A DNA stretch of 43,346 bases from an uncultured bacterium (GCA_964534375.1 CAZHPN010000029.1:1-43346), one strand, 5' to 3'; shown: positions 1 through 36,536, counted from the stretch's first letter. Translations and numbers: made by a program. The notes: generated by a model not told the origin, from the letters alone.

Positions 1-7
1 AGGGGCA

Positions 8-35
8 GGAAATTTCGGCGGGCGCCGAAATTTCC
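8..35. repeat. Palindromic element copy 1: GGAAATTTCGGCG-gg-CGCCGAAATTTCC (13-bp arms, 2-bp spacer), with similar flanks to the copy at 333-355
   Basis: Read directly: the perfect inverted repeat with an AT-rich core contrasts with the GC-rich surroundings. A second, related copy lies about 325 bp downstream. Confidence 0.6.
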
Positions 36-332
36 GGGGAGAGGTCTGCGCGACCGACAAAGAGCGCAATTCTGCGCCATTTGAAGCATCGCCGCTCTTA
101 ATCCTAAAGCCTATGCCCCGCCACGGAGGAGGGCGAGCGGACGCCTTTGCGAACCCGGGATTCGAAGAGACGCCGCGCCGACCGCAACTTCGCCTCCCGC
201 CTTCTGAGCTTCTTGCAAGAATCACTTCTTGCATCTGCGAAAGGGAATTCGAGGATGATACGCAATAATTTGCTGGCCCGACACCGACTGCGGGTCCTCC
301 GCGTGCCCCCTCTCCGCGTCGGAGAGAGGCGG

Positions 333-355
333 AAAATTTCGGGAACCGAAATTTT
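333..355. repeat. Palindromic element copy 2: AAAATTTCGG-gaa-CCGAAATTTT. It is preceded by a short hairpin CTCTCCG-cgt-CGGAGAG (310-326).
   Basis: Read directly. It shares the TTTCGG..CCGAAATTT core and the G-rich flanks (GGC..GGAAA / TTTGGGGAGGGG) with copy 1. It lies about 170 bp upstream of the first CDS. Confidence 0.55.
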
Positions 356-525
356 TGGGGAGGGGCCGGCGCGACGAGTCGTGCATGATCCCGGTATTTA
401 TGCAAGAGGCTCTCCTGACTTCTCCGTTCTCCCTTCCGCCCTCTTTCGGGTTGACTCCCCCGCGCCGACTCGGCGATACTGCGTCGTCATTCAACCAACA
501 CACGAACCACGGCGAGGGCCAACAC

Positions 526-1849: not shown

Positions 1850-2314
1850 ATGAGAATCATGAATTTCTATGTGGACACGTCCGTCGTGGGCGGCCTAGAG
1901 GATGAAGAATTTGCGGCGGACAGCCGCGCGTTGTGGCAGTGCTTCGAGGCCGGCAAACACCGCCTCGTCCTCTCCTTCCATACCCTTCGAGAGCTTCAAC
2001 AGGCGCCCGACGCGGTGCGGCGGCATGTGCGGGCGGTTCCCGAGCAGCACGTCATCGTCTTGGTCGAATCCAAGGAAGCGGAGGAACTCGCCCGGACATA
2101 CCTTCGGCGCGGAATCGTCGGTCCGGGCTCGTCCTCGGACGCGCTGCATGTCGCCCTGGCTACGGTTGGTCGCGTGGACGCGATGGTGAGCTGGAATTTC
2201 AAGCATATCGTGAACCTGGGCCGAATTCGGCTTTTCAACGCCGTCAACCTGGAGTTGGGTTATACTTTGATTGAGATCCGATCCCCTAAGGAGGTGATCG
2301 CTTATGAAGAATAA
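1850..2314 (+). CDS. PIN-domain protein (VapC-like putative toxin)
   Basis: The ORF runs 1820-2314. The ATG at 1850 is preceded by GGAAGGGG. The N-terminus 'MNFYVDTSVV' is a typical PIN beta-1 with the first acidic residue. Later acidic positions (DALHVALA, MVSWNFKHIVN) fit the PIN fold. Confidence 0.6.
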   Translation: MRIMNFYVDTSVVGGLEDEEFAADSRALWQCFEAGKHRLVLSFHTLRELQQAPDAVRRHVRAVPEQHVIVLVESKEAEELARTYLRRGIVGPGSSSDALHVALATVGRVDAMVSWNFKHIVNLGRIRLFNAVNLELGYTLIEIRSPKEVIAYEE

Positions 2315-2516
2315 AGCGTTCGACGCCGTCGGATTCATGCGCCGGCGGCGCAGCGAGATAGACCAGGAAGACGAGGGCCTCACTTGGGAAGAGAGGCGTG
2401 AAAAGACGCGGAAAATCCTGCAGGACGACGCCTTATTGCGCCGCTTGCGCCATCGAGCGATGCCCGAAGTCGGCCAGTCGTCCGCTGCCGAGGCCGCCGG
2501 AGCACATTCCTACTAA
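2304..2516 (+). CDS. Small (70 aa) charged protein that overlaps the 3' end of the PIN gene. It may be the partner/antitoxin of a toxin-first TA pair.
   Basis: A very strong SD (AAGGAGGTGA) lies 6-7 nt before the ATG at 2304. The gene overlaps the PIN CDS by 11 nt. The product 'MKNKAFDAVGFMRRRRSEIDQEDEGLTWEERREKTRKIL' is highly charged. Confidence 0.5.
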   Translation: MKNKAFDAVGFMRRRRSEIDQEDEGLTWEERREKTRKILQDDALLRRLRHRAMPEVGQSSAAEAAGAHSY

Positions 2517-2538: not shown

Positions 2539-5031
2539 TCAAATCCGGCCGAACTCCGTCCGGCCGATGATCTCGTCCTGCAACGGCCGGCCGAGGTCCG
2601 TGAACAGCGCGGCGTAACCCGACACCCGCACCACGAGGTTCCGATATTTTTCCGGATGCGCCTGCGCGTCGCGCAGCATGCGGTTCGAGACCACGTTCGG
2701 CTGCAATTCCATGCCGCCCTCGGCGAAAAAGCCCTTGACCAGCGCGACCATTTTGTCGAGCCGTTCCTCGCCTTCGAAGAGGCTCGGCAGCAGTTTGATG
2801 TTGACCGCGCAGCCGTTCGAGATCAGGCGGTGATCGATCTTGGCGACCGACCGCAGCATGGCCGTCGGGCCGCGCCGCTCCGAGCCGTTGGCCGGCGAAA
2901 AGCTGTTGCTGACCGGTTCGCCGGAGCGCCGGCCGTCCGGCGTGGCGCCGACGAGCAGGCCGTCGAGCAGGTGCATGCCATAGGAGAAAAAGCTCGGGCG
3001 GAACGGCCCGCCGCGGATCGACCGCTGCGCCGCCACCTCGCGGCAGAAGAACTCCGCGACATCCCGCGCGATGGCGTCGGCGAAATCGTCGTCGCTGCCG
3101 TATTTCGGGGCTTTGGCGGCGAGCATCGCCCGTACGATCTCGCCGCCCTGGAAGTTGCCGGCGAGCAGGCCGAGCAAATGGCTCATCGAAATCGTGCGTT
3201 CGTCGTAGACGTAGCGTTTGATCGCCGCGAGCGAATCCACCGTGGTGCCGAAGCCGCGGGCGCTGAGCGAGGCGAAGTTGTACTTCGCGCCGCCTTGGGT
3301 CATGTCGCGCGCGTTCGCGACGCAGCCGGTCAGCGTCGCCGACACATACGGATTCGGAAACGCCTCACGGTACGCCTGGTCCTTGAGGTTGACCGCCAGC
3401 GCGACGATCTCGATCAGCCGGCGGACCTGGCGGCGAAACGCGTCCATGAATTCGGCGAACGTTGCGAATTGGCGCGGATCGCCGGTCGCCGGGCCGATGC
3501 GTTTGCCCATCACGCGCAGTTCGCCGTTGAGCAACGTCATTTCCAGTGCTGCCGCCAGCGACAGGTCGTTCCCCGACGTGCAGGCGAACGTGTCGCCGTC
3601 GCCCGTCGGCTCGACGCAGCCGATCACGCCGTAATTGCGCGCGTCGGCCAACGCGTAGCCGCAGTTTTGCAACGCCGGCACGGCCAAATCGTCGTTGAAC
3701 AGCGCCGCGCCGGACGTGCTGCGGTACACCGCCAGCGCCTGGCGCCAGAAAGCGGGCGGCGTCTGGCGCGACAGCCGGATCGTAAAGGTGTTGCCGAGGC
3801 CTTTCACGTTCGCGAAGGCGTCGAGGATGATGTAGGAAAGCTCGTTGACCGCGTCGCGGCCCCGTGCGTCGACGCCGCCGACGGTCGGCGCGCCGCTGTC
3901 CGCGCCCAGTTCGCTGCCCGTGCGTTTGGCGGCGTAGGGCAGCACGATCAGGCTGTACGAGAGCTTGATCAGCAATTCCTCGATCAATTCCCGCGCTTCG
4001 GCCGGCGTGATGCGGCCGGCGGCGAGATCCTTGGCGTAATAGGGATAGAGATATTGATCGAAGCGGCCGATCGCGAAAATCGCCGTCATGCCGTAGGCGA
4101 TCAGGCCGCCCACCTCGGTCAACCACAGCGCCTGCACCGCCTCGCGGAAGGTGCGCGGCGGCTGGAACGGCACGCGCCGGCAGATGGCCGCGGTTTCCAG
4201 CAAGTCGCGCCGGCGCGCGTCGTCCGTCGCGGCGGCGGCGACGCGTTCGGCCTCGTCGGCGACGCGTCCGGCGAATTCGCGAATGGCGTCGCACGACAGC
4301 ATGACGGCTTCGAGAAACGCGCGGCCGTCCGCGTCGTCGGCCGGCCGGCTCGCCAGGCGCCGCGCGGCGTGTTTCTTGACGCCGGCGAAGCCCGTTTTGA
4401 GGATATTGCGCAGGCCGAGGATCAAATGCCCCTGCACGTCGAACACGTTGGTGGCGAACGCCGGATTGTTGTAGGCCAGCTCCTCGAAGGCGCGCAGCGC
4501 GTACAGCGGCTTGACCTTTGGGATTTTGCTCAATTCGAGCATGCGGCCGACGTCCATCGCCCGCGCCATCTTGAGATAGTGCCGCGGCCGCACGGCGGCG
4601 CGAAGATACAGGCCGTTCTCCTTCCACAACTGGCGCTTGCGGTCGCGCAGGGTCTTGCCCCGCCAATAGGGCAGAATGCGGTCGCGCAATTCGCGCTCTT
4701 CCTCGGCGGTGATGCGATACGGCTGCGGCTCGCGATGGCGCAGAAAATCGAGATCCATGTCGAGCACGACATTCATATCGCCGCGCTCGACGGGGATCAC
4801 GCCGGCCACCAATTTGCTGGAGCGGTTGCCCAGAATTCGCTCTTCGTCAAGGATGTAGATCGTCATCTGCCGCAGCGTGTGCGCGAAGGCGAGGGCGGCG
4901 CGCTTCGCCGGGTGCTCGCCTTCCGTCTGCTGGAACGATTCGGTGTAATACCTCGCCCGTTCCAGGCAGATTTCATACGGGGCGGTCAGCACGCGATCTT
5001 TGTATCGTTGGTTGCGCGGGTGGATGGGCAT
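2539..5031 (-). CDS. Glycyl radical enzyme, Cys-x-Glu 'eliminase' class. It resembles the choline TMA-lyase, glycerol/propanediol dehydratase, isethionate sulfolyase and hydroxyproline dehydratase group. The substrate is unknown.
   Basis: It has the C-terminal glycyl radical motif 'RVSGYAALFTDLG' and the catalytic Cys loop 'GCVEPTGDG'. The size, about 830 aa, is typical of PFL-family enzymes. The chosen start is the Met of 'MPIHPRNQRYKDRVLTAPYEICLERARYY', preceded on the minus strand by GAGGGGGA. The longer ORF reaching 5301 is rejected because its extension is Arg/Pro-rich junk. Confidence 0.85.
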   Translation of the reverse strand: MPIHPRNQRYKDRVLTAPYEICLERARYYTESFQQTEGEHPAKRAALAFAHTLRQMTIYILDEERILGNRSSKLVAGVIPVERGDMNVVLDMDLDFLRHREPQPYRITAEEERELRDRILPYWRGKTLRDRKRQLWKENGLYLRAAVRPRHYLKMARAMDVGRMLELSKIPKVKPLYALRAFEELAYNNPAFATNVFDVQGHLILGLRNILKTGFAGVKKHAARRLASRPADDADGRAFLEAVMLSCDAIREFAGRVADEAERVAAAATDDARRRDLLETAAICRRVPFQPPRTFREAVQALWLTEVGGLIAYGMTAIFAIGRFDQYLYPYYAKDLAAGRITPAEARELIEELLIKLSYSLIVLPYAAKRTGSELGADSGAPTVGGVDARGRDAVNELSYIILDAFANVKGLGNTFTIRLSRQTPPAFWRQALAVYRSTSGAALFNDDLAVPALQNCGYALADARNYGVIGCVEPTGDGDTFACTSGNDLSLAAALEMTLLNGELRVMGKRIGPATGDPRQFATFAEFMDAFRRQVRRLIEIVALAVNLKDQAYREAFPNPYVSATLTGCVANARDMTQGGAKYNFASLSARGFGTTVDSLAAIKRYVYDERTISMSHLLGLLAGNFQGGEIVRAMLAAKAPKYGSDDDFADAIARDVAEFFCREVAAQRSIRGGPFRPSFFSYGMHLLDGLLVGATPDGRRSGEPVSNSFSPANGSERRGPTAMLRSVAKIDHRLISNGCAVNIKLLPSLFEGEERLDKMVALVKGFFAEGGMELQPNVVSNRMLRDAQAHPEKYRNLVVRVSGYAALFTDLGRPLQDEIIGRTEFGRI

Positions 5032-5149
5032 CGGCGTTCCCCCTCGGCAAGCGGGCCGGGTTGTCCGGCAAAACCAAAGCAAAACACTCAAGAATCCCCT
5101 GAACGGGTAGATTATGATCGCGGCCGCGGCAATACAAGGGCGCCGCCGC

Positions 5150-5440
5150 GGCTGCACAGGTGGATGAAAACAAAGAGTTTTTGTTGTGCGCTGCCGTGCG
5201 CCATCGGGCGCAATTCGCGCTCGGTGCGCTAAGTGCTTGAAAACAAAGACTTTGCGGGAGTGCTCGCGCAGACGGGTCGAAAAACGCGCGCGGCGGGACA
5301 TCTAAGTATGTGAAAACAAAGCGTTTGCGGGAGTGGCGGGAGTGTGCGGGAGTCGAGAAAAAGCACTCCCGCCGCCTAACTATTTGAAAATACTGGGAAA
5401 ATACAGATTTGGCGGGAGTGGCGGGAGTGTTTCCCTATGC
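5150..5440. repeat. Degenerate tandem repeat array with a 73-bp period. Units begin near 5155, 5228, 5301 and 5373 with TGAAAACAAAG(nn)TTTG (a CAAAG-nn-CTTTG mini-palindrome). They are followed by 1-3 copies of GCGGGAGTG.
   Basis: Read directly. TGAAAACAAAG occurs at 5155, 5228 and 5301, exactly 73 bp apart. TTTGAAAATAC occurs at 5373. GCGGGAGTG occurs at 5244, 5318, 5327, 5337 (variant), 5402 and 5411. Confidence 0.7.
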
Positions 5441-5490
5441 TGGGCTTAAGGAAAAAAATGAAGTTAACAATAGTGTAAAGCCGTGCGGAA

Positions 5491-5517
5491 GGGGCGGAAA
5501 CACTCCCGCCACTCCCG
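5491..5517. repeat. An inverted triple copy (CACTCCCGC x3) of the GCGGGAGTG motif, closing the repeat array. With the 5401-5419 copies it can form a long-range stem.
   Basis: Read directly: CACTCCCGCCACTCCCGCCACTCCCGC is the reverse complement of GCGGGAGTGGCGGGAGTGGCGGGAGTG. Confidence 0.7.
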
Positions 5518-6376
5518 CCACTCCCGCAAAACCCGCCGCGGTGACGCCCCGCGTACGCGTTAACTGATTGCACGCACCCGGTCGCACCATTGCCCATCGA
5601 CGCAGGTCTCGTCGCCAGCATTTTTTCGGTCGTCCGACGCAGAATGGCGAATGGCGAATAAAGACATGGCGACGCCCCTCGAATTTCTCCATTTTCCACT
5701 ATCCCTTCTCCATTCCGGTTTTCGCTCCTCTCGAACGTTGGCTTGGCGCGGAGGGAGGACGGCCAGATAGGGACCTGCCGTCGGGGAAGCGCATCTTTTC
5801 ATCGACTCCGCTCGTCCCCAAAACGGCGTCTGGCGGGCGGGCCCCGGGTCTCACCGATTTCCAGCGCTTCACATTTAACTCACATAAACAAATTGCAACG
5901 ACGAAACCGAGCCATCGAAGATTTCGCTCGCGGTTGCACGGCCGCGGCCTGCGGAAAATTTTCCAGCGACCCGCGCGGTCTCGCAATGTTGGCCGTGTTT
6001 GGCCGTAAATCGGCGGAAATTGGCCAATGGGCCGGCGCGCCCGCGGGCCGCCGCCCGGCCGGCCGCGTAAAATCGCAATACTGGCGCGGTCAAATATCAC
6101 TTTTCGAACATCACCGCCAACTTGGCACGATTATTTCATACACATTTCTCGCCGTCAGAAAAAAGTTCGAAAAGTCGAAAAGTACGGTATTGCATTGTAT
6201 TGTTTGGGGATGATGGGCGCAGGCGACACGAACTCGTTCGGGTCCTTTCGGTAACACGCGTCGCCTTCGAGAACAGACAAGCAGCAGCAGTGCGCGTCCG
6301 CGCGCCGGCGACCATTTTGCGGTCGCAGCGCAAACGACGCCGGGCGAAACACTGTCGAATGGCCGAGGGGGAAACC

Positions 6377-6898
6377 ATGGCGCGCAAGCAATCCAGAGAC
6401 CAAAGCACTGAGAAAAATGTCGGATTAGGCAATATTTTCCATAGCTTAGGCGGGTTCATCGACTTGCTGTCCGACCTGGCGGAGCAGGGCGGCGAATTCA
6501 AACGCTCCGGCGAAACCAGCAACGACAAAGACGGCGTCAAGGCCGTTTACGGCTTCTCGGTGCGCCTCGGCGGCGGCGGCGGCAAGCCGGTCGTCGAACC
6601 GTTCGGCAACGTGAAACGCGAGGGCCAAAAAGCGGTCGTCGACGATACGCGCGAGCCGATGGTGGACGTGTTCGACGAGGGCGATCATTACCGCATCGTC
6701 GCCGAACTGCCGGGCGTGACCGCCGAAGATATTCACTACGAGCTTCGTGACGATATCCTCAATCTGCGCGCGGCGCACGGCGAGAAAAAATATCGCAAAG
6801 AGATTCTGCTGCCGGCGCCGGTCGCAGCGGAGCGCATCAAGTCGTCGTACCGCAACGGCGTGCTGGAGCTCAAAGCGCCCAAAGGCAAAACGTCGTAA
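6377..6898 (+). CDS. Hsp20/alpha-crystallin family protein (GvpH-like small heat-shock protein)
   Basis: The alpha-crystallin domain reads 'MVDVFDEGDHYRIVAELPGVTAEDIHYELRDDILNLRAAHGEKKYRKEILLPAPVAAERIKSSYRNGVLELKAPK'. The start is the ATG at 6377, after GAGGGGGAAACC. The gene lies at the edge of the gas-vesicle region. Confidence 0.75.
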   Translation: MARKQSRDQSTEKNVGLGNIFHSLGGFIDLLSDLAEQGGEFKRSGETSNDKDGVKAVYGFSVRLGGGGGKPVVEPFGNVKREGQKAVVDDTREPMVDVFDEGDHYRIVAELPGVTAEDIHYELRDDILNLRAAHGEKKYRKEILLPAPVAAERIKSSYRNGVLELKAPKGKTS

Positions 6899-7699: not shown

Positions 7700-8334
7700 T
7701 CTACGTGCCGATCATTCATGCCGAGTCGGACCTGGGGACCATGGCCGACGATGTGCGCGCGCAGTTCGACGCCTTGCGCGAGTCCGGCGACAACTGGGAA
7801 CGGCGGGCCGCGGCGATCGACTCCATGTGGGACGGCATCCGCGCCAAACTGTTCGCGCTGCCCGTCGAATGGCGCCGCACGCGCGTCTACCAGGACGGCC
7901 TGCCCGTCTGCCATCTGGAGGCGCAAATCGTGAAGGACCTCGCGGCCAAGGGCAGCCGGAATTTTCAGTTGCTGCTCGAGTTGGCCGCGCGCGGCGGCAC
8001 GGTGATGGGCGCGGACAAATTGGAATTGCTCATCGAGGAATATCAACGCGTGCAAAAATTGGTGCAGGCGGCGCGCGACGGCGCGTCGGACGAGGCGGTG
8101 CGCGAACTGCAAGACGAGGGCGACGCCATCCTGCGCAAGCGCGACGAGTTCATCGCCGCGCACATTCAAGACACGCTGCAAGAGGGCGAAACCGGCGTGC
8201 TGTTTCTCGGCGTGCTGCATCGCGTCGACGAACTGCTGGCCGGGAAGTTCGAAGTGCGGCATTTGATCCACAGCCTCCCGTTCGAGTCGGACGTGCGGCG
8301 GCTTTTGAAGGAGCGTCAGCGATATGGTTCATGA
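7687..8334 (+). CDS. Hypothetical protein (215 aa)
   Basis: The ORF has a non-random composition and a GTG start. It overlaps the upstream receiver gene and the downstream AAA ATPase, so it may be co-transcribed. No motif is recognised. Confidence 0.4.
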   Translation: MRTLIYVPIIHAESDLGTMADDVRAQFDALRESGDNWERRAAAIDSMWDGIRAKLFALPVEWRRTRVYQDGLPVCHLEAQIVKDLAAKGSRNFQLLLELAARGGTVMGADKLELLIEEYQRVQKLVQAARDGASDEAVRELQDEGDAILRKRDEFIAAHIQDTLQEGETGVLFLGVLHRVDELLAGKFEVRHLIHSLPFESDVRRLLKERQRYGS

Positions 8335-10513
8335 AGCAAAAAAACGGCAGACGGAAAGTGTCGCCTTGCGCGTGGCCGAGGCGTTGCCCAAAGACGTCGG
8401 CCGCGGCATCGCCCGGCTCGACCCGCAGGACCTGGCGCGGCTCGGCGCCGAAGTCGGCGACGTGTTGCTGGTGACCGGCGAGCGCGCCACGGCGGCCAAG
8501 GCGATGCCCGCCTACAGCGAGAACCGCGGCCAGGGGCTCGTGCAGATCGACGGCATCGTGCGCGGCAACGCCAAGGCCGGCCTCGACCAGCGCGTCACCG
8601 TGGCCAAAAGCAGCCACGCCCCGGCCGCCAAGATTGTCATGCGGCCCGTCAACGCGGCGGCCGCGGGCCCCCGCGACGGCGACGCGCGCTACGTCGGCCG
8701 GCTGCTCGACGGCCTGCCGCTGCTCGCCGGCGACCGCGTGCGCGCCCTGCTGTTCGGCTCGCGCTTTCAGGATTTCGAGGTGGTGGCGACGCAGCCGCGC
8801 GAGGGCTGCGTGATCGTGCACCCGCAGACGCAAATCGTGATCGAAGCCGAGGGCAAAGCCGGCGGCGGCAAATCGGCCGGCATCTCGTATGAGGACGTCG
8901 GCGGCCTGCACAAGGAAACGCGCCGCGTGCGGGAAATGATCGAACTGCCGCTGCGCTATCCGCAAATCTTCGAGCGCCTGGGCATCGACGCGCCGAAGGG
9001 GGTGCTGCTCTACGGCCCGCCGGGCACGGGCAAGACCTTGCTCGCCCGCGCCGTCGCGCACGAGACCGAGGCGAATTTCATTTCGGTCAGCGGGCCGGAA
9101 GTGATTCACAAGTTCTACGGCGAAAGCGAAGCGAAGCTGCGCGGAATTTTCGAGCAGGCGCGCAAAACCGCACCGTGCATCATCTTCCTCGACGAACTCG
9201 ACGCCATCGCCCCCAAGCGCGAAAACGTGCAGGGCGACGTGGAAAAACGCGTCGTCGCCCAACTCCTGGCGTTGATGGACGGCTTGGAGACGCGCGGGCA
9301 GGTCATCGTCATCGGCGCGACGAATATCCCCAATGTGCTGGACCCGGCCCTGCGGCGGCCCGGCCGCTTCGATCGCGAAATCGAGATCGGCATCCCGGAC
9401 GCCGGGGCGCGGCGCGAAATCCTCGAGATTCATACGCGCGGCATGCCGCTGGCCGACGATGTCGACCTCGGCCGGCTCGCGGAAATCACGCACGGCTTCG
9501 TCGGCGCGGACCTGCAGGCGCTGTGCCGCGAGGCGGCGATGACGACGCTGCGCAACGTGATGCCGGGGATCGACCTGGCGAGCAAAGAAATCCCCTACGA
9601 GGTGCTGGTCGCGCTGAAGGTGACGATGGCGCACTTTCTCTCGGCCCGGGGCGAGGTCGAGGCCTCGGCGGTGCGCGAGGTGTTCGTCGACGTGCCCAAC
9701 GTCAGTTGGGACGACGTCGGCGGCCTGGACGACATCAAACGCGAATTGCACGAAGCGGTCGAGTGGCCGCTCAAACACGCCGCCTTGCTCGCGCACGCCG
9801 GCGTGTCGCCTTCGAAAGGGATTCTGCTCTACGGCCGGCCCGGCAGCGGCAAGACCCTGCTCGCCAAAGCCGTGGGCTCGCAAAGCGGCGTCAATTTCAT
9901 CTCGGTCAAAGGCCCCGCGCTGCTGTCGAAGTACGTCGGCGAAAGCGAAAAGGGCATCCGCGAAGTCTTCAAGAAAGCGCGCCAGGCCGCGCCCTGCATC
10001 TTGTTTTTCGACGAGATCGACGCGCTCGCGCCGACCCGCACCGCCGAAAGCGGCGATTCGCACGTGGCGCAACGCGTGATCAGCCAACTGCTGACCGAAA
10101 TGGACGGCGTGGAAGAGCTCAAGGGCGTGCTGGTCATCGCCGCCACCAATCGCAAGGACATGCTCGATCCGGCGCTGCTGCGACCCGGACGCTTCGATCT
10201 CTTGATCGAGATGCCGACGCCCGACGCCGGCGCCCGCGCCAAAATCTTCGAGGTCTGCCTGAAAGGGAAGCCCCTGGCCAAGGGCGTGCGCCTTACGGAT
10301 CTGGCGCAGCGCACCGAGGGCGCGACCGGCGCCGACATCGACTCGATCTGCCGCCGCGCCGCGTTCCTGGCGGTGCGCGATTTTCTCGCGACGCACGCCG
10401 ATGAAGACGCGGCCAGTCTGCGCATCACCGACGAAAAACTGCGGGCCGCGATCCGCGACATCAGGGGGTCGAATCCGTCCGCGCGCGACGAAGCCGAACA
10501 GCGAGCCCAATAA
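8324..10513 (+). CDS. CDC48/VCP-like AAA+ ATPase with two AAA domains
   Basis: It has an N-domain, two Walker A motifs ([15 protein letters not shown] and [15 protein letters not shown]) and two second-region-of-homology motifs ([13 protein letters not shown] and [13 protein letters not shown]). Confidence 0.85.
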
Positions 10514-10516
10514 GCG

Positions 10517-11830
10517 ATGTTCTGCCTGACGTACCAAAACGAACAGGAACGGGCCCGGGCCGTGGTCGCCATCGCCCGCCGTTGCCGGAAAGCGCGCACG
10601 GCTTTCGCGTTCGTCGGCACGGCGGCGCAATGCGCGGCCCTTCGGCCGGAGGTCAAACGGCTCTCGGCGCCGGTGCACCGGAGCGTGACCTACTGCGCCA
10701 CGGAACTCGCCGTGATCGCGCACAGTCATGCCGCGCTGAACGAGGCGATCGGCGCGTTGCGCACGACCTTGCTCGAACTGTCGGCCGACGGCCGCCCGCT
10801 GGTGGTCTGGGTCGATTCGCCGCTCATGCCCGCCGGCGCCGCGCATGCCGGCGCGATGTGGGTCTACCGCAACGCGGTCGACGATTTCGCGGCCCTGGCG
10901 CGGTTGCGCATCGTCAACGCCTATCGCTTCGCCGAGGTCGCGCCGGCGGTGCGCGCCAATTTGTTCGAGGTGGCCAACGCGGTCATCAGCGCCCGCTCCG
11001 TTTTCCCGCTCTGTCCGCCGTGGGTGATCGAAGCGCCGGCTGAACCGCGCCGCGACAATTCCCGGGTCGCCGGCGCGGCGGCGCCGGGGGCCGGCTTCGG
11101 CTTCGGTTCGTTGCTGCAGGCGGAAAAGCTGGCGACGATCGGGCAGATGGCCGCCGGCTTCGCGCACGAACTGGGCAATCCGCTGTCGGTTATCAGCTCC
11201 AGCATTCAGCATTTGCAACAACGGTTCGAGGCCGCCGGCGATCCGGAGCGCGAATTCGCGACGCTGGCCTTGCAAAACGTCGAGCGGATGCAGGGCCTGC
11301 TGCAGAACATTCGCGAGGCGGCGGGCGTGCGCGAACGGCAATTCCAGGCCGTCGAACTCAAAGAAGTCGTGGCGGAAGTGCTGCGCTTCGCGGCGGCGGA
11401 ATTTCGCCGGCGCGGCGTCGCGGTCCAGGTCCGGTTCGATGCGGCGTTGCCGCGCGTCTTCGTGGATCCCAGCGGCGTGAAACAGGTGTTGCTCAACGTG
11501 GTCCGCAATGCGCTCGACGCCATGAACGGCGGCGGCGGCGCGTTGCGCGTGCACGCGTCGTGGTCGCGGGACAAGAACGCGGCCGTCGTGAAAATTGCGA
11601 ACAACGGCCCGGCGATCGCCGCGGCGGATTTGCCCTGCATGTTCCGGCCGTTTTTTACGACGAAGAAAGAAGGGACCGGCCTCGGCCTTTTCCTGTCGCG
11701 AAAAATCGCGCGGGAGCATGGCGGCGACCTGGCGGCGGAAAACGTGCCGGGCGGCGTGCGCTTCGTACTGACGCTGCCGCGGGATCCCCGCGAAAGGGAC
11801 GATCATGGCCAACATACTAATTGTGGATGA
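10517..11830 (+). CDS. Cytoplasmic sensor histidine kinase (HisKA + HATPase_c) with an uncharacterised N-terminal domain
   Basis: The H-box is 'AAGFAHELGNPLSVI'. The N/G boxes are 'LLNVVRNALDAM' and 'FFTTKKEGTGLGLFLS'. No hydrophobic TM segments are seen. The 3' end overlaps the NtrC-type regulator by 26 nt. Confidence 0.8.
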   Translation: MFCLTYQNEQERARAVVAIARRCRKARTAFAFVGTAAQCAALRPEVKRLSAPVHRSVTYCATELAVIAHSHAALNEAIGALRTTLLELSADGRPLVVWVDSPLMPAGAAHAGAMWVYRNAVDDFAALARLRIVNAYRFAEVAPAVRANLFEVANAVISARSVFPLCPPWVIEAPAEPRRDNSRVAGAAAPGAGFGFGSLLQAEKLATIGQMAAGFAHELGNPLSVISSSIQHLQQRFEAAGDPEREFATLALQNVERMQGLLQNIREAAGVRERQFQAVELKEVVAEVLRFAAAEFRRRGVAVQVRFDAALPRVFVDPSGVKQVLLNVVRNALDAMNGGGGALRVHASWSRDKNAAVVKIANNGPAIAAADLPCMFRPFFTTKKEGTGLGLFLSRKIAREHGGDLAAENVPGGVRFVLTLPRDPRERDDHGQHTNCG

Positions 11831-13211
11831 CGAACCGAATCTGTGCCGGCTGCTGACGATGCTGCTGCGCGAGCACGGGCACCGGGCGCGGTACGTGCTG
11901 TCGGGCGAGGATGCGCTGACCGCCGCGGCCGAACACGTCCCCGATCTCGCGCTGCTCGACTTGAACATGACCGGCATGGACGGCATGGAAACGCTGCGGC
12001 GGCTGAAACGCCAGGCCCCCGAACTCCAGGTGGTCATCATGTCGGCCGTCGGCGACCTGAGCGTGGCCGTGCGGGCGATGAAACAGGGCGCCGTCGATTT
12101 CCTTTCCAAACCGTTCGACAACAAGGCGTTGCTGTCCACGATCGACACTCATCTGGCCAACCGTAGCGAGGCCCCCCCGGACTCGCCGTTGCTCATAGGA
12201 CAGAGCCCTACCTTCCTGACCGCCGTCGACGAGGCGCGCAAATTCGCGCCGCCCGACATCAACGTGCTGCTGCTTGGCGAGACCGGCACGGGCAAGGAAC
12301 TCTTCGCGAAGACGATCCACGCTTGCAGCAAACGGCGCAACGGACCGTTCGTGGCGATGGACTGCTCGATGCTCGCCGAGAACCTGTTCGAGAGCGAACT
12401 GTTCGGCTATGAAAAAGGGGCCTTCACCGGCGCCGACACGTCGCGTATCGGCCGGCTGGAGCTGGCCCAGGGCGGCACGCTGTTCCTGGACGAAATCGGC
12501 AATCTGCCGCTGGCGTTCCAGGCGAAGATGCTGCGCGTTCTACAGGAGCGCCGCATGGTGCGCGTCGGCGGGCGCAAGACGATCGCCCTGGATGTGCGGC
12601 TGATCTCGGCGACCAATGTCAATGTCAAAGAAGCGGTCCAGGCGGGCCGGTTCCGGCAGGATCTCTTTTATCGGCTGCAGGAAGTCGCGATCAACCTGCC
12701 GCCGCTGCGCGAACGTCCCGGCGATGTGCGGCTGCTCGCGGAACGTTTCGTCGCGACCTACGCCAAGGCCTTCCAGGCCCCGGTGGCCTCGATCTCGCCG
12801 GAGGCGCTCCGGACGCTGGAATCGCATCCGTGGCCGGGCAATGTCCGCGAACTCGAAAATGCGATGAAGTCCGCCGTGGTGCGGGCCGCGGACATTATGC
12901 GCCGCGAGGATCTGCCGCCCGAGATTCAGGGGGAGTGTGCGGCGCCCGCCGCTTCGGCCCCGGCGTCCGCGCCGATCGGCCGGCGCCAGCGGCTGCTCGT
13001 GGAAATCGAATACGAACTCGACGCGCTGGGCGTCGACTTGAAAGCGATCGGCGCGCAAGCGGCCGAGCGGGCGGAAAGCCAGGTGCTGCAGGATTTGTCG
13101 AAGCGCGTGCGCGTCGCGGGCAGCCGCCTGGCGAAAATGGTCAACGTCGACCCCAAGACGTTGCGGACCAAGCTGCGCAAATACGGTCTCGAAACTCACG
13201 GAATATCATAA
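11805..13211 (+). CDS. Sigma-54-dependent response regulator (NtrC family enhancer-binding protein)
   Basis: The receiver reads '[14 protein letters not shown]' and '[13 protein letters not shown]'. The AAA+ sigma-54 interaction domain reads '[12 protein letters not shown]' and '[15 protein letters not shown]' (GAFTGA). A C-terminal HTH is present. Confidence 0.85.
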
Positions 13212-13413
13212 AGGAGCGCGACGTGCGCCGCATCGTCCACCACAAAATTGCGCCGGCGTCGGGCAAGCATTCCCCCGCGAGGGGAACCGATTCCCGGGGT
13301 TCGTTCCCCCAGGACGGCGCGCCGATAACCGGGACTTCGGGCGCGGCCCGAAAAATATCACAAAATCCGAACGTTGACGCGTTTTCGCCGCCGCCGGCGG
13401 GCCCGGCGCCCGT

Positions 13414-13429
13414 TGGCGCCGGTCTTGCT
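13414..13429 (+). promoter_or_regulatory. Sigma-54 (-24/-12) promoter TGGCGC-cggtc-TTGCT upstream of gvpA
   Basis: Read directly: the GG and GC dinucleotides are spaced as in the consensus TGGCAC-N5-TTGCW. It lies about 50 bp upstream of the gvpA start and directly downstream of the NtrC-family activator gene. Confidence 0.6.
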
Positions 13430-13480
13430 AAACCCCATATCGCCGCAACAACGCGGCGCAAAAAAACAAGGGGTATGAAA

Positions 13481-13702
13481 ATGGCAAAGGTTATGAAGTC
13501 AACTGATTCCTCGAGCCTGGCGGAAGTGGTGGACCGGATTCTCGACAAAGGCATCGTGATCGACGCTTGGGCCAAAGTCTCGCTGGTCGGCATCGAACTG
13601 TTGTCGGTCGAAGCGCGCGTTGTTATCGCGTCGGTCGAGACGTACCTGAAGTACGCGGAAGCCATCGGCTTGACCGCCACCGCGGCCGCGCCCACGGCGT
13701 AA
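13481..13702 (+). CDS. gvpA: Gas vesicle structural protein GvpA
   Basis: '[65 protein letters not shown]' is almost the canonical GvpA sequence. An AAGGGG SD lies 8 nt upstream of the ATG at 13481. Confidence 0.95.
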
Positions 13703-14280: not shown

Positions 14281-14380
14281 TCGCGGGACAGCCGCGCGCC
14301 GTGCGCGGCTGCCAATGCGGGCGCGGGCCGGGCGAAACCAGAAAGCGGAGCGACGGCGGCGTCGCGAAAGGAAAGGGACG

Positions 14381-15412
14381 ATGAACGGAAACGGCGAACA
14401 ACCCAATGTCGTAGCTCTCATGGACATCGCGTCGCCGACGGGCATGGCCGTCGAACCGAGCGAGGACTTCGTTCAAACTCCCGCGGTGCGGCAGTTGGCG
14501 AACCGGGCTCTCGCCTATCTCAAAGCGGGATACCCGGTTCATTTCTCCGGCCCGACGGGAACGGGAAAAACGACGCTGGCGCTGCACGTGGCGGCGCTGC
14601 GCGGCCGGCCGGTCACGCTGATGCACGGCGACGACGAGTTCAGCTCCAGCGACCTGGTCGGCGGCGAATACGGATATCGCAAAAGCAAGCTGATCGACAA
14701 CTTCATTCACTCGGTGGTCAAAACGGAAGAAAGCGTCAACACGCTGTGGACGGACAATCGGCTGACGCTGGCCTGCCGGGCCGGCGACACGTTGGTGTAC
14801 GACGAATTCACGCGCTCGCGGCCGGAAGCGAACAACGCGCTGCTCTCGGTGCTCGAGGAGCGGTTGCTCTCGCTGCCCAAACGGATGCCGCGCGCGGACG
14901 GTTATATGGAAGTCCATCCGGATTTTCGCGCGATCTTCACGTCGAATCCGGAGGAATACGCCGGCGTCCATCGCACGCAGGACGCGCTGCTGGACCGCCT
15001 GATCACCATCAAGGTCGATTATTTCAATCGCGATACGGAGGTGGAAATTACCCGCATGAAATCCGGACTGACCTTGGCGGAAGCCGTGATGATCGTGGAT
15101 GTCGTGCGCCAGTTGCGCGATATGGGGTTGACCAAGCAAGGGCCGAGTCTGCGCGCCTGCATCATGATCGGCCGCATCGCGGCTCAGCAGGGCGCGCACG
15201 CCCGGCGCGGCGACACGGTGTTCTCCGAAATCTGCCACGACGTGCTGGGCGGCCTGGCGCCGCGGGTCGTGCACGACGGCAAAAAGGGCATTCACTCGAT
15301 GATCGACGAAATCATCGCCAAGTGCGCCAAGGACGAGCGGCGGCCCGTGCGGGAAATCGCGGTCGGCGACAACGGGACGGCGATCGCCGTGAAGAAGGAG
15401 CAGCGGTCATGA
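14381..15412 (+). CDS. gvpN: Gas vesicle protein GvpN (MoxR/CbbQ-like AAA+ ATPase)
   Basis: The Walker A motif is 'FSGPTGTGKTTLALHVA' and the Walker B region is 'TLVYDEFTRSRPEANNALLSVLEER'. The size and position after gvpA are as expected. Confidence 0.85.
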   Translation: MNGNGEQPNVVALMDIASPTGMAVEPSEDFVQTPAVRQLANRALAYLKAGYPVHFSGPTGTGKTTLALHVAALRGRPVTLMHGDDEFSSSDLVGGEYGYRKSKLIDNFIHSVVKTEESVNTLWTDNRLTLACRAGDTLVYDEFTRSRPEANNALLSVLEERLLSLPKRMPRADGYMEVHPDFRAIFTSNPEEYAGVHRTQDALLDRLITIKVDYFNRDTEVEITRMKSGLTLAEAVMIVDVVRQLRDMGLTKQGPSLRACIMIGRIAAQQGAHARRGDTVFSEICHDVLGGLAPRVVHDGKKGIHSMIDEIIAKCAKDERRPVREIAVGDNGTAIAVKKEQRS

Positions 15413-15777: not shown

Positions 15778-16029
15778 ATGAGCATCAAATTAAATTGTCT
15801 GGCCTGCGGACACACGCTGACGCTCGGCGACGCGTACGAGGACTTCACCGGCGAGGTTCATTGCTGGGGCTGCCACACGCTGCTGGAAATCGCGTTGGTG
15901 GACGGCCGGCTCCGGTCGATCCGGCGGGCGGGAACCGGCGGCGCCGCGCTGGCCGCGCCCGCACACGAACAACCGGCGGAGCCGCAAGCGCCGCTGCCGC
16001 GGGATGGCGAGGCGGGTTATGGCGAATAA
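15778..16029 (+). CDS. Small zinc-ribbon protein (CxxC ... CxxC)
   Basis: 'MSIKLNCLACGHTLTLGDAYEDFTGEVHCWGCHTLLEIALVDG' has a GGGGA SD upstream. The C-terminal half is low-complexity. It overlaps the gvpF start. Confidence 0.4.
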   Translation: MSIKLNCLACGHTLTLGDAYEDFTGEVHCWGCHTLLEIALVDGRLRSIRRAGTGGAALAAPAHEQPAEPQAPLPRDGEAGYGE

Positions 16030-16783
16030 AGGGCTTTATCTCTACGGCCTGATTCGCGCGGACGACCAGCGGGAGTTCGGCTGCATCGGCTTGGCCGACG
16101 AAGGCGCGCCGGCGCTGGTGACGTCGATTTGCATCGCCGGGGTCTGCGCCGTGGTCAGCGACTGCGGGACGCAAAAAATCATGCCGTTGCGGAAGTATCT
16201 GGATCCCTATCATCGGGTGATCCAGGAAGTGATGAAAACGGCGACGATCATCCCCATTCGTTTCGGGCACGTCGCCAGAAACCGCGACGCCATCGCGACG
16301 ATGTTGAAGCACAACCGCGACACGATCCGCGAAGGTCTCGACCGGGTCGCCGGCTGCGTCGAAATGGGGCTGAAGGTGAAATGGGATGTGGACAACATCT
16401 TCGAACATTTCATCGGCATCGACGCGGAACTGGCCGCCTTTCGCGACGAGATCTTCGGCCGGTCGCAGGCGCCGAGCCTGGCGGAAAAAATCGAGCTGGG
16501 CCGGCTCTTCGCGGAGCGGCGGGCGAAGGAACGCGAGCGGGAGACGGAGCGGGTCATCGAACAGTTCCAGGGGTTTTCCGCCGACGTGAAATCGAATACC
16601 CCCAAGAACGAAACCGTCGTCATGGATCTCGCCTTTTTGGTGGCCCGCGACGCGATGAAGACGTTCGAGGAGCGGGTGTATCAAGTGGCGGCGACGTTCC
16701 CGTCGCACTATCTGTTCGACTACACGGGGCCGTGGGCGCCGTTCAACTTCGTGGACCTGGATCTGCAAACGCCGGACGATTGA
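16019..16783 (+). CDS. gvpF: Gas vesicle protein GvpF/GvpL family
   Basis: The N-terminus 'GLYLYGLIRADDQREFGCIGL' is typical of GvpF/L. The length, about 255 aa, also fits the family. Confidence 0.8.
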   Translation: MANKGLYLYGLIRADDQREFGCIGLADEGAPALVTSICIAGVCAVVSDCGTQKIMPLRKYLDPYHRVIQEVMKTATIIPIRFGHVARNRDAIATMLKHNRDTIREGLDRVAGCVEMGLKVKWDVDNIFEHFIGIDAELAAFRDEIFGRSQAPSLAEKIELGRLFAERRAKERERETERVIEQFQGFSADVKSNTPKNETVVMDLAFLVARDAMKTFEERVYQVAATFPSHYLFDYTGPWAPFNFVDLDLQTPDD

Positions 16784-21724: not shown

Positions 21725-21727
21725 CGG

Positions 21728-23547: not shown

Positions 23548-23600
23548 ACGAATGCGGGGGGAATCCCCCACGCGTGTTCCGCTGGGGACGGAAGGCAACG

Positions 23601-36485: not shown

Positions 36486-36536
36486 TCGGAGCCCTCTCGT
36501 ACAGATCGCGGTCTCGGCCTGAGCCCGACGTGGGCA

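What the first reader, a model, noticed from the sequence alone, without database searches (positions are those of the whole stretch)
2539..5031. Orphan Cys-x-Glu glycyl radical enzyme with no activating enzyme or pathway genes nearby
The enzyme has RVSGYAALF and the GCVEP catalytic loop. The single Cys followed by Glu marks the dehydratase/lyase ('eliminase') branch, which includes CutC, glycerol/propanediol dehydratase, IslA and HypD, rather than the PFL or benzylsuccinate branches. Such genes are normally adjacent to their radical-SAM activase, but none is present within 2.5 kb on either side. The flanks are a PIN/small-protein pair and a 1.3-kb non-coding region. The substrate cannot be assigned from sequence alone.
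Basis: partly seen in the sequence, partly recalled or inferred. Interest (0 to 1): 0.55.

Follow-up and report, generated by a model that had tools for sequence, protein, structure and literature searches.

The report
Stand-alone glycyl radical enzyme, unknown substrate
This is an intact gene for an oxygen-sensitive radical enzyme from a large, widespread and uncharacterised family whose members almost always sit alone in the genome, away from the helper enzyme that activates them, so the lone gene is normal for its family and its substrate is still unknown.

Summary
Window 2539-5031 (-) encodes an intact 830-aa glycyl radical enzyme (GRE) with GCVEP (Cys472/Glu474) and RVSGYAALF (Gly805). 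No activase or activase remnant lies anywhere in the 43-kb window. The gene is monocistronic.

The orphan state is not special to this locus. The protein belongs to a monophyletic clade (100/100 bootstraps; at least 44% identity inside it; W at most 37%, any member at most 43%, to GD, PD, HypD, CutC, HpsG, PflD or YbiW). The clade occurs in Desulfobacterales, Myxococcota, Hydrogenedentota, Planctomycetes, Chloroflexota, Syntrophomonadaceae and many Asgard archaea. Of 78 orthologous loci (978 kb of flanks), only 2 have an adjacent activase. No Pfam family recurs in more than 5 of 134 nearest neighbours.

The clade has its own active-site signature:
- DxQGH on beta-1, retaining the His of the C-O-cleaving enzymes
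- GCVEPT...TSGND
- RPGFFSYG
- a PFL/BSS-like RVSGY glycine loop
- a roughly 41-residue insert

It fails every curated NCBIfam cut-off. The most likely function is a new-substrate 1,2-eliminase or isomerase-type GRE, activated in trans. A few orthologous loci carry AOR, Fe-ADH, acyl-CoA ligase and ECH genes, which hints at an aldehyde product. Existing annotations (PFL, "pflD", probably "Ass/Bss" in Asgard papers) are not supported. Interest is moderate: it is a good enzyme-discovery target, not a new kind of system.

The parts
2539..5031 (-). Glycyl radical enzyme CDS, 830 aa, monocistronic
   Evidence: ORF and translation. Pfam PFL-like and Gly_radical. The identical protein is found on contigs from three metagenome samples. 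AF2 model has pLDDT 89.6 and pTM 0.91.
2968..5007 (-). PFL-like barrel domain (residues 9-688)
   Evidence: Pfam PF02901, 1.5e-160. Foldseek TM 0.86-0.90 to GD, PD, HypD and CutC.
2602..2910 (-). Glycyl radical domain (residues 708-810)
   Evidence: Pfam PF01228, 3.6e-30.
2602..2628 (-). Gly loop RVSGYAALF; radical-bearing Gly805 at 2617-2619
   Evidence: Translation. R802, S804, G805 and Y806 are conserved in all family members that cover the region. Ser804 is PFL/BSS-like, where all CxE references have Ala.
3607..3621 (-). Cys loop GCVEP; catalytic Cys472 and Glu474 (CxE)
   Evidence: Translation. C472, V473 and E474 are invariant in 74/74. The clade-specific continuation is PT..G.-TF.CTSGND.
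4426..4428 (-). His202 in the invariant DxQGH motif on beta-1
   Evidence: It aligns with GD His164, PD His166 and HypD His160 (His180 of the tagged PDB chain) in HMMER alignments and in MAFFT. It is invariant in 74/74.
4444..4641 (-). Clade-specific insert region (residues 131-196). It is about 41 residues longer than in GD, HypD, PflD or YbiW and is predicted as three short helices.
   Evidence: phmmer splits the match at 130/197. The span W123-H202 is 80 residues (family median) against 38-39 in the references. Helices at 149-158, 161-167 and 175-187 have pLDDT 61-75.
5038..5045 (-). Shine-Dalgarno GAGGGGGA, 6 nt (5032-5037) before the ATG
   Evidence: Sequence.
5160..5536 (.). Repeat array in the GRE upstream region. 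It holds nine copies of CACTCCCGC in both orientations, a perfect 25-nt inverted repeat, and 3-4 direct units at 73-85-nt spacing. It is a presumed cis-regulatory array; its function is not shown.
   Evidence: All 9 copies in the window lie at 5254-5527, against 0.66 expected by chance.
5032..6358 (.). 1,327-nt intergenic region between the GRE and the divergent gas-vesicle genes
   Evidence: No credible ORF or Pfam hit. GC is 0.58. No Rfam family apart from a false mir-935 hit on the hairpin. No activase remnant.

Best explanation
The gene encodes a functional, activase-dependent glycyl radical enzyme. It belongs to a large, uncharacterised clade of the PFL2 / eliminase-isomerase branch.

**Proposed mechanism (inferred by homology).**
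1. A radical-SAM activase encoded elsewhere in the genome puts a radical on Gly805.
2. The radical passes to Cys472.
3. The thiyl radical abstracts H from a substrate carbon that carries a hydroxyl group.
4. Glu474 deprotonates that hydroxyl, giving a ketyl-type radical.
5. A leaving group on the neighbouring carbon departs. It is most likely oxygen-linked and protonated by His202.
6. The product radical takes H back from Cys472, giving an aldehyde or ketone.

The substrate differs from all characterised ones, because the clade has its own active-site signature.

The gene is transcribed alone, from a promoter region that carries a locus-specific repeat array. Being unlinked from the activase and from any pathway genes is the normal state of this clade.
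For: **Shown here.**
- The GRE is intact, with all catalytic motifs.
- The AF2 model is confident and matches GD, PD, HypD and CutC at TM 0.86-0.90.
- The clade is monophyletic in 100/100 NJ bootstraps. Identity is at least 44% inside it, against at most 37% for W and at most 43% for any member to GD, PD, GrpM, HypD, CutC, HpsG, PflD, YbiW and TdcE.
- In 74 family sequences from bacteria and Asgard archaea, C472, E474, H202, T383, T485, G322, R323 and D325 are conserved in all, and R802, S804, G805, Y806, R678 and D489 in all or almost all that cover the position. This indicates purifying selection on a working active site.
- His202 aligns with the general-acid His of GD, PD and HypD, and with a His in PflD and YbiW.
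- Two members of the clade (L053, L059) share the full signature and have a typical 310-aa activase with a ferredoxin insert immediately downstream. The clade therefore uses a standard activase.
- The other 76 of 78 loci have none within up to 10 kb.
- There is no conserved neighbour.
- The gene is monocistronic: the downstream genes are convergent, and a 1.3-kb gap with divergent genes lies upstream.

**Hints for an aldehyde product.**
- L081 (Desulfobacterales) has GntR/FadR - V4R - GRE - acyl-CoA ligase - enoyl-CoA hydratase - aldehyde:ferredoxin oxidoreductase on one strand.
- L075 (Helarchaeota) has AOR, ferredoxin and Fe-ADH 2.5-7 kb downstream, and an acyl-CoA ligase upstream.
- L008 (Desulfatibacillum alkenivorans) has Fe-ADH, GntR and V4R next to the GRE.

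**Precedent for activation in trans.** TdcE is activated by PFL-AE and shares its Gly loop (PMC13450708). A tdcE-like gene without an adjacent activase was seen.
Against: - No activase from the same organism could be identified, because only one contig is available.
- The attempt to find activases on the same long contigs as family GREs, by matching contig lengths, found none among the top 120 hits.
- The chemistry is inferred purely by homology.
- CxE also occurs in HPAD-type decarboxylases.
- The aldehyde-handling neighbours occur in only 3-4 of 78 loci, so they could be coincidental.
- The substrate-contact residues of GD (His281, Ser282, Tyr339, Asp447, Tyr640) and the HypD residue Asp278 are replaced. 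Even 'C-O cleavage' is therefore only the most likely option.
- The subfamily model TIGR01774 is not reached: 576.8 bits against a 678.2 cut-off.
Confidence: 0.7

Rival explanations
1. It is a pyruvate formate-lyase (formate C-acetyltransferase). This is how JGI names this protein, and 'pflD' is the label used in Asgard wetland genomes.
For: The source annotation is 'formate C-acetyltransferase'. PMC11291895 treats 'pflD' of Atabeyarchaeia and Freyarchaeia as PFL. The Gly loop RVSGYA resembles the RVSGYAV of PFL and TdcE.
Against: PFL and TdcE need two adjacent cysteines (PMC13450708), but here the residue before Cys472 is an invariant Gly. The NCBIfam PFL equivalog scores 133.6 bits against a 994.2 cut-off. 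Identity to TdcE is 28% and it is the outgroup in the tree. phmmer to PFL structures gives 1e-38, against 1e-131 for GD.
Confidence: 0.01
2. It is an X-succinate synthase (alkyl- or benzylsuccinate synthase) that activates hydrocarbons by addition to fumarate, as was proposed for similar Asgard GREs.
For: PMC8163825 named single-Cys Asgard GREs 'Ass/Bss'. Their identity to AssA, BssA and A. fulgidus PflD is about the same as found here. The family consensus Gly loop RVSGYSA equals the BSS/IBSS loop quoted in PMC13450708. Some Desulfobacterales loci carry acyl-CoA ligase, ECH and ACAD genes and a V4R hydrocarbon-type sensor.
Against: BSS and MASS are the most distant single-Cys matches: 24-25% identity, Foldseek 1e-44 against 1e-59, phmmer 1e-62 to 1e-74. 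There are no beta, gamma or delta small-subunit genes and no activase next to the gene, in the window or in the orthologous loci. The Glu of CxE and the beta-1 His are retained as in eliminases. From memory and not tested, the fumarate-binding Arg at Cys+15 of BSS would be Gly487 here.
Confidence: 0.05
3. It is a diverged orthologue of an already characterised eliminase or isomerase (glycerol or propanediol dehydratase, CutC, IslA/IseG/HpsG/HpfG, HypD and relatives, PflD/YbiW).
For: The best sequence and fold matches are GD, PD, HypD and CutC. His202 and Glu474 are as in GD and PD. Thr485 aligns with CutC Thr502, and the SELGA motif is shared with CutC.
Against: All NCBIfam equivalogs fail by about a factor of two: HypD 523.6/1100, HpsG 494.4/1000, HpfG 468.9/1000, PflD-type 462.2/1109, CutC 447.2/1050. 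The clade is separate in 100/100 bootstraps. Substrate contacts differ:
- GD His281/Ser282 ('ESNGHSIS') becomes 'YGM.GIFA'.
- GD Tyr339 becomes Ala/Ser.
- GD Asp447 becomes Ser486.
- GD Tyr640 becomes Phe682.
- HypD Asp278 becomes Gly/Ala.
- CutC Tyr506 and HypD Tyr450 become Asp489.
- HpsG Arg672 becomes Ser/Gly680.
Confidence: 0.07
4. It is an inactive relic or pseudo-enzyme: a GRE that has lost its activase and no longer carries a radical.
For: There is no activase in 43 kb, and no pathway genes.
Against: The reading frame is intact and all catalytic residues are invariant across bacteria and archaea at 44-79% identity. The identical protein occurs in three metagenome samples. Two clade members keep an adjacent activase. 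The lone arrangement is shared by 76 loci from many phyla, which is not what decay looks like.
Confidence: 0.03
5. It is a GRE decarboxylase (HPAD, IAD, PAD or AAD type), which also has Cys-x-Glu.
For: HPAD has Cys503/Glu505. IAD-type enzymes need no small subunit.
Against: Similarity is much weaker: the NCBIfam indoleacetate decarboxylase model scores 328.7 and the HPAD large-subunit model 283.8, against 523-577 for the eliminase models. phmmer to HPAD structures gives 3e-52 to 3e-72, with 21% identity in Foldseek.
Confidence: 0.04

Closest known systems
B12-independent glycerol dehydratase (C. butyricum, PDB 1R8W) and 1,2-propanediol dehydratase (R. inulinivorans, PDB 5I2A/5I2G)
   Same: These are the best sequence and fold matches: phmmer 1e-131 and 1e-127; Foldseek 3.9e-59 with TM 0.88; 36-37% identity over the core. 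They share the GCVEP Cys loop with catalytic Cys and Glu, and the beta-1 His (GD His164, PD His166 = His202).
   Different: - The diol-binding residues are replaced: 'ESNGHSIS' becomes 'YGM.GIFA', Tyr339 becomes Ala/Ser, Asp447 becomes Ser, Tyr640 becomes Phe.
- The Gly loop is RVSGY, not RVAGY.
- There is a roughly 41-residue insert before beta-1.
- There is no adjacent activase or alcohol dehydrogenase. In C. butyricum the GRE, activase and Fe-ADH are contiguous.
- It forms a separate clade.
Choline trimethylamine-lyase CutC (PDB 5FAU, 9F3W)
   Same: CxE; Thr485 aligns with CutC Thr502; the 'SELGA' stretch on the neighbouring strand is shared; TM 0.89.
   Different: TIGR04394 scores 447 against a 1050 cut-off. 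CutC Tyr506 becomes Asp489. There is a His rather than (from memory) Asp216 on beta-1. There are no microcompartment genes and no activase.
trans-4-hydroxy-L-proline dehydratase HypD (PDB 6VXC)
   Same: It is the second-best profile match (NF043068, 523.6 bits). His160 equals His202, CxE is present, and the fold matches.
   Different: The score is half the 1100 cut-off. Asp278 becomes Gly/Ala and Tyr450 becomes Asp489. There is no adjacent activase or proC (compare).
TdcE and GrcA of E. coli (GREs activated in trans by PFL-AE)
   Same: The gene has no activase of its own next to it (PMC13450708). The window protein's Gly loop RVSGYA(A) nearly equals the RVSGYAV of PFL and TdcE.
   Different: TdcE is a two-Cys formate-lyase, only 28% identical. 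The two clade members that do keep an activase have the long ferredoxin-insert type, not the short PflA type.
Archaeoglobus fulgidus PflD (PDB 2F3O) and Asgard 'Ass/Bss' or 'pflD' annotations
   Same: These are single-Cys PFL-like GREs of disputed or unknown function in archaea. The clade studied here includes Jord-, Frey-, Atabey-, Thor-, Hel- and Hodarchaeota genes. PMC13450708 states that no archaeal PFL-like GRE has an established function.
   Different: Identity to 2F3O is only about 30%, so it is not the same isofunctional family. It is likely, but not verified here, that the published Hermodarchaeota sequences fall in this clade.

Membership tests
Glycyl radical enzyme superfamily (PFL-like) | PFL-like 10-stranded barrel domain plus C-terminal glycyl radical domain | tested here: met
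   Pfam PF02901 1.5e-160 and PF01228 3.6e-30. The AF2 model has pLDDT 89.6 and matches solved GREs at TM 0.86-0.90.
Glycyl radical enzyme superfamily (PFL-like) | Gly loop RVxG[FY] with the radical glycine, and a catalytic Cys on the Cys loop | tested here: met
   RVSGYAALF (Gly805) and GCVEP (Cys472). Both are invariant in the clade.
Glycyl radical enzyme superfamily (PFL-like) | A radical-SAM activating enzyme in the same genome | not testable with these tools
   None in the 43-kb window, and only this contig of the organism is available. Two clade members have one adjacent. Contig-length matching of activase hits found nothing.
GRE 1,2-eliminases / isomerases (PFL2 branch) | Single Cys followed by Glu (CxE) on the Cys loop | tested here: met
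   C472-V-E474, invariant in 74/74. The motif definition comes from PMC13450708. HPAD also has CxE.
GRE 1,2-eliminases / isomerases (PFL2 branch) | Membership of NCBIfam subfamily TIGR01774 (PFL2/glycerol dehydratase family) | tested here: not met
   It is the best-scoring model, but 576.8 bits is below the curated 678.2 cut-off.
GRE 1,2-eliminases / isomerases (PFL2 branch) | beta-1 His acting as general acid in the C-O-cleaving members (GD His164, PD His166, HypD His160) | tested here: met
   His202 aligns with them and is invariant.
GRE 1,2-eliminases / isomerases (PFL2 branch) | Catalysed elimination or isomerisation giving an aldehyde or ketone | not testable with these tools
   There are only indirect hints: AOR, Fe-ADH and acyl-CoA ligase genes near the gene in L081, L075 and L008.
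Pyruvate / 2-ketobutyrate formate-lyase (PFL, TdcE) | Two adjacent catalytic cysteines; TIGR01255 equivalog | tested here: not met
   Gly471-Cys472. 133.6 bits against a 994.2 cut-off. 28% identity to TdcE.
X-succinate synthases (BSS, MASS/ASS) | Adjacent small subunits (beta, gamma, delta) and an adjacent activase; close similarity to BssA, AssA or MasD | tested here: not met
   No small same-strand ORFs or activase. 24-25% identity, the weakest single-Cys matches apart from HPAD. Fumarate-binding residues were not tested.
Choline TMA-lyase CutC | TIGR04394 equivalog; choline-contact residues (Asp216, Thr502, Tyr506 and others) | tested here: not met
   447.2 bits against a 1050 cut-off. The Thr502 equivalent is kept (Thr485) but Tyr506 becomes Asp489. 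The Asp216 position is His202, an equivalence recalled from memory.
Sulfonate C-S lyases / DHPS enzymes (IslA, IseG, HpsG, HpfG) | Two Arg plus one Gln binding the sulfonate; NF048011 and NF048009 equivalogs | tested here: not met
   494.4 and 468.9 bits against 1000 cut-offs. HpsG Arg672 aligns with Ser/Gly680. The beta-1 Arg and Gln positions correspond, by extrapolation, to Asp198 and His202.
Hydroxyproline dehydratase HypD | NF043068 equivalog; Asp278 and Tyr450 contacts | tested here: not met
   523.6 bits against a 1100 cut-off. Asp278 becomes Ala317 (Gly/Ala in the clade) and Tyr450 becomes Asp489.
GRE-associated microcompartment (GRM) loci | BMC shell genes next to the GRE | tested here: not met
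   No BMC domain among the window proteins scanned or among the 25 most frequent Pfam families listed for the 134 nearest neighbours of orthologues. Compare the grpM locus.

The most novel reading that the evidence does not exclude
The clade represents a new GRE reaction, not just a new substrate for a diol-dehydratase-like enzyme. One example would be radical cleavage of a C-O ether or ester-type bond in a lipid- or polymer-derived hydroxylated compound common in anoxic peat and sediment, feeding an aldehyde into AOR, acyl-CoA ligase and beta-oxidation. On this reading the clade has also evolved to be serviced by a shared, unlinked activase across bacteria and Asgard archaea. Its hybrid loop pattern (PFL/BSS-like RVSGY glycine loop on an eliminase-like CxE core) would reflect that partnership. 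If so, the 'PFL' and 'alkylsuccinate synthase' roles assigned to it in Asgard metabolic reconstructions would be wrong.
Probability: 0.25. Interest if true: 0.7.

Novelty: new member of a known kind. Interest (0 to 1): 0.45.

Why it matters
Glycyl radical enzymes carry out some of the hardest anaerobic chemistry, and each newly assigned clade (CutC, HypD, IslA, YbiW/PflD) has revealed a new pathway.

This clade is large. There are more than 120 clusters at 90% identity among close hits, from at least seven bacterial phyla and most Asgard lineages. It is common in peat, wetland and sediment metagenomes. It is currently annotated as pyruvate formate-lyase or, probably, as alkylsuccinate synthase, and both labels feed into published carbon-flow models for Asgard archaea.

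Genome context, the usual route to GRE function, gives almost nothing here because the gene is systematically alone. That explains why the clade has stayed uncharacterised. It also means that the few informative loci, and the two that keep an activase (L053, L059), are the practical entry points for biochemistry.

Tried and rejected
1. **Activase in the window.** A CxxxCxxC scan of all six frames hit only off-frame sequence. phmmer, an HMM of six activases and tblastn found nothing, including in the 1.3-kb gap, so there is no pseudogene remnant.
2. **Activase just outside the window.** The contig ends about 294 nt further on, and the 'gene' called there translates to low-complexity junk.
3. 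**Conserved neighbourhood.** All-against-all BLAST clustering of ORFs from 78 loci, and a Pfam census of 134 nearest neighbours, found nothing in more than 5-7 loci. The two closest relatives (78-79% identity) have unrelated neighbours.
4. **Activases on the same long contigs as family GREs.** I searched the protein database with the L053 activase and compared contig lengths. None of the top 120 matched, so the result is inconclusive.
5. **RNA elements upstream.** Rfam gave only a spurious mir-935 hit on the inverted repeat.
6. **Sigma-54 promoter for the GRE.** None was found. The only good match (6123-6138, plus strand) faces the gas-vesicle genes, and the count does not exceed chance.
7. 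**Family members on plasmids.** None were found; the best hit was 33% identity.
8. **Organism name.** The cluster look-up returned none.
9. **Residue geometry.** Model coordinates are not exposed, so active-site residues were assigned only by alignment to solved structures.
10. **Literature.** I found no paper that characterises this clade.


Full report
**What is at the coordinates.**
The minus-strand ORF is open from 5301, but the true start is the ATG at 5031. It is preceded by a GAGGGGGA ribosome-binding site at 5038-5045, and its N-terminus MPIHPRNQRYK is shared by all homologues. The 830-aa product has a PFL-like domain (1.5e-160) and a glycyl radical domain (3.6e-30). An AlphaFold2 model built on 30 homologues is confident (pLDDT 89.6, pTM 0.91). 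It superposes on solved GREs at TM 0.86-0.90.

**No activase, and a gene that stands alone.**
- No CxxxCxxC motif falls in a credible frame anywhere in the 43,346-nt window.
- An HMM and tblastn with six verified GRE activases find nothing. The best tblastn E-value is 0.15, and there is no remnant in the 1.3-kb gap.
- The window is almost the whole JGI contig Ga0455670_0007791 (43,684 nt). The roughly 294 nt beyond the GRE-side end look non-coding.
- Downstream of the GRE, the genes are convergent on the plus strand. They are a weak PIN-like ORF at 1859-2314, an overlapping 70-aa ORF at 2304-2516, and a polysaccharide pyruvyl transferase at 526-1797.
- Upstream lies a 1,327-nt gap, and then divergent plus-strand genes of a gas-vesicle cluster.

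**Which branch of the superfamily.**
- phmmer against PDB sequences ranks glycerol dehydratase first (1e-131), then CutC (2.5e-130), HypD (8.7e-128) and propanediol dehydratase (1.4e-127). BSS and MASS score 1e-62 to 1e-74, HPAD 3e-52 and PFL 1e-38. Foldseek gives the same order.
- No curated NCBIfam cut-off is reached:

| Model | Score (bits) | Cut-off (bits) |
|---|---|---|
| TIGR01774 (subfamily) | 576.8 | 678.2 |
| HypD | 523.6 | 1100 |
| HpsG | 494.4 | 1000 |
| HpfG | 468.9 | 1000 |
| PflD-type | 462.2 | 1109 |
| CutC | 447.2 | 1050 |
| PFL | 133.6 | 994.2 |

- The 2026 Drennan-lab review states that CxE is kept by all eliminases and by the isomerases HplG, YbiW and PflD. HPAD also has Cys503/Glu505. 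CxE alone therefore does not define the eliminase class. The assignment rests on overall similarity plus His202, which aligns with GD His164, PD His166 and HypD His160, and with a His in PflD and YbiW.

**A large, distinct clade.**
- The protein database holds more than 120 clusters at 53-79% identity with the same length of about 831 aa.
- A scan of one genome per species returned 78 loci. They come from Desulfobacterales (including Desulfatibacillum alkenivorans DSM 16219), Myxococcota, Hydrogenedentota, Planctomycetes, Chloroflexota, Syntrophomonadaceae and many Asgard archaea (Jord-, Frey-, Atabey-, Thor-, Hel- and Hodarchaeota).
- I built a neighbour-joining tree of the core (629 columns) with references. 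GD, HypD, GrpM, PflD, YbiW and TdcE were fetched from annotated records. PD, HpsG and CutC were transcribed from the PDB alignments. The family is monophyletic in 100/100 bootstraps. Identity is at least 44% inside it; the window protein is at most 37% identical to any reference and no family member exceeds 43%. Its sister group is unresolved.
- The clade's signature is conserved from bacteria to archaea:
  - DxQGH on beta-1
  - 'YGM.GIFA', where the diol and sugar enzymes have 'ESNGHSIS'
  - GSELGAD
  - GCVEPT..G.-TF.CTSGND
  - fRPgFFSYGmH
  - a glycine loop RVSGY(S/A)A, where every CxE reference has RVAGYSA and PFL/TdcE have RVSGYAV
  - a roughly 41-residue insert before beta-1 (80 residues against 38-39 between two anchor positions), predicted as three short helices of lower confidence
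- Substrate contacts of the known enzymes are replaced:
  - GD His281/Ser282, Tyr339, Asp447 and Tyr640
  - HypD Asp278 and Tyr450
  - CutC Tyr506
  - HpsG Arg672

**The orphan state is the family norm.**
- The 78 loci carry 978 kb of flanking DNA, and 44 loci have at least 2.5 kb on both sides.
- Only L053 and L059 have an activase. It is a 310-aa radical-SAM protein with the ferredoxin insert, placed immediately downstream.
- These two GREs form their own small subclade, but they carry the full family signature. The family therefore does use a conventional activase, which has simply become unlinked almost everywhere.
- By contrast, the reference loci fetched for GD, HypD, GrpM and YbiW all have the activase next door. 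The tdcE-like gene, which uses PFL-AE in trans, does not.
- No neighbour is conserved. BLAST clustering finds nothing beyond shadow ORFs and generic regulators. In a Pfam census of the 134 nearest neighbours, no family occurs more than five times.
- Even the relatives at 78-79% identity have unrelated neighbours: a weak GH130-like hit (E 0.003, below the gathering score), a carboxylesterase and a GMC oxidoreductase.

**Hints to function.**
- A Desulfobacterales subset has a GntR/FadR regulator and a V4R ligand-binding protein next to the GRE (L008, L009, L010, L072, L081, L012).
- L081 reads GntR - V4R - GRE - acyl-CoA ligase - enoyl-CoA hydratase - aldehyde:ferredoxin oxidoreductase on one strand, followed by a second, 1,096-aa GRE.
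- The Helarchaeota locus L075 has AOR, ferredoxin and Fe-ADH within 7 kb, plus an acyl-CoA ligase. D. alkenivorans has an Fe-ADH nearby.
- These few, phylogenetically distant cases fit the eliminase logic: an aldehyde product that is then oxidised or reduced, possibly with a CoA-activated, beta-oxidisable chain. They are too few to prove it.

**Mechanism proposed (inferred).**
1. An activase acting in trans puts a radical on Gly805.
2. The radical passes to Cys472 as a thiyl radical.
3. The thiyl radical abstracts H from a carbinol carbon.
4. Glu474 deprotonates the hydroxyl group.
5. A neighbouring, probably O-linked, leaving group is lost with help from His202.
6. H returns from Cys472.

**Literature.**
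I found no characterisation of this clade. The review notes that whole GRE clades, and all archaeal PFL-like GREs, lack a function. Asgard papers label similar genes 'Ass/Bss' (PMC8163825) or 'pflD, pyruvate formate-lyase' (PMC11291895). The single Cys, the CxE Glu, the His and the distances measured here argue against both labels. I did not verify that those exact published sequences belong to this clade. The Atabey- and Freyarchaeia genomes of the second paper do carry clade members (L030, L031).

**Verdict.**
However, 'orphan' is a clade-wide property rather than a peculiarity of this locus. The gene is a new, uncharacterised member of a known kind of enzyme. It is of moderate interest as an enzyme-discovery target, and as a correction to current annotations.

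Noticed in passing
window 5160-5536: A locus-specific repeat array lies 130-500 nt upstream of the GRE start. The 9-mer CACTCCCGC occurs nine times, all within 5254-5527 and in both orientations (0.66 expected in the whole window). There is a perfect 25-nt inverted repeat (5410-5434 / 5496-5520) and 3-4 direct units at 73-85-nt spacing that contain TGAAAACAAAG...TTTGCGGGAGTG. It is probably a regulator-binding array. It is absent upstream of the 78-79% identical relatives, which have only about 100-nt intergenic regions.
   Followed up: partly
window 6359-30559: This stretch holds a gas-vesicle gene cluster:
- GvpH/Hsp20-like, 6359-6898
- CDC48-type AAA, 8324-10513
- three GvpA/J-type genes, 13223-13702, 21725-22156 and 22259-23230
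- GvpN-like AAA_5, 14315-15412
- two GvpL/F genes, 16004-16783 and 29735-30559

It is interleaved with response regulators, PAS histidine kinases, an HD-GYP-type and a GGDEF response regulator, and a sigma-54 activator. It is unrelated to the GRE.
   Followed up: partly
window 6123-6138 (+): TGGCACGATTATTTCA has one mismatch to the sigma-54 -24/-12 consensus. It lies about 220 nt upstream of the gvpH-like gene, and three sigma-54 enhancer-binding proteins are encoded in the window (11805-13211, 30571-31944, 41475-42911). The number of such matches in the window does not exceed chance.
   Followed up: no
window 30571-42911 (-): This is a dense block of signalling genes on the minus strand: two sigma-54 activators, two PAS hybrid histidine kinase/response regulators of 990 and 1,223 aa, a HisKA_3 kinase and a LuxR-type response regulator. 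A 1,634-aa multi-PAS hybrid kinase with an Hpt domain lies at 23205-28109 (+).
   Followed up: no
window 1859-2516 (+): A PIN-like 151-aa ORF (Pfam PIN E 4.9e-4, below the gathering score) overlaps by 11 nt a following 70-aa ORF that has no family. If this is a toxin-antitoxin pair, the gene order (PIN first) is unusual for VapBC.
   Followed up: partly
L019 18148-21174 (-) and L081 18432-21722 (+): A second, different and much larger GRE (1,008-1,096 aa, with a roughly 300-aa N-terminal extension, GCVEPT Cys loop and RISGYNAYF Gly loop) lies 6-8 kb from the family GRE in two Desulfobacterales MAGs. It too has no activase within the locus, and it is about 33-35% identical to the family.
   Followed up: partly
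L081 8450-16869 (+): An operon-like row reads GntR/FadR - V4R - GRE - AMP-dependent ligase - enoyl-CoA hydratase - aldehyde:ferredoxin oxidoreductase. It is the most informative context found for the clade.
   Followed up: partly
L026, L029, L030, L074 (Asgard loci), about 120-160 nt downstream of the GRE, opposite strand: An OsmC-like protein (Pfam 1.3e-15) is the immediate convergent neighbour of the GRE in four Asgard loci.
   Followed up: no
window 1-405 and the contig end (L001 14627-15325): The gene that the source called at the contig end translates to Arg/Gly/Pro-rich junk. The contig probably ends in non-coding or repeat sequence.
   Followed up: no
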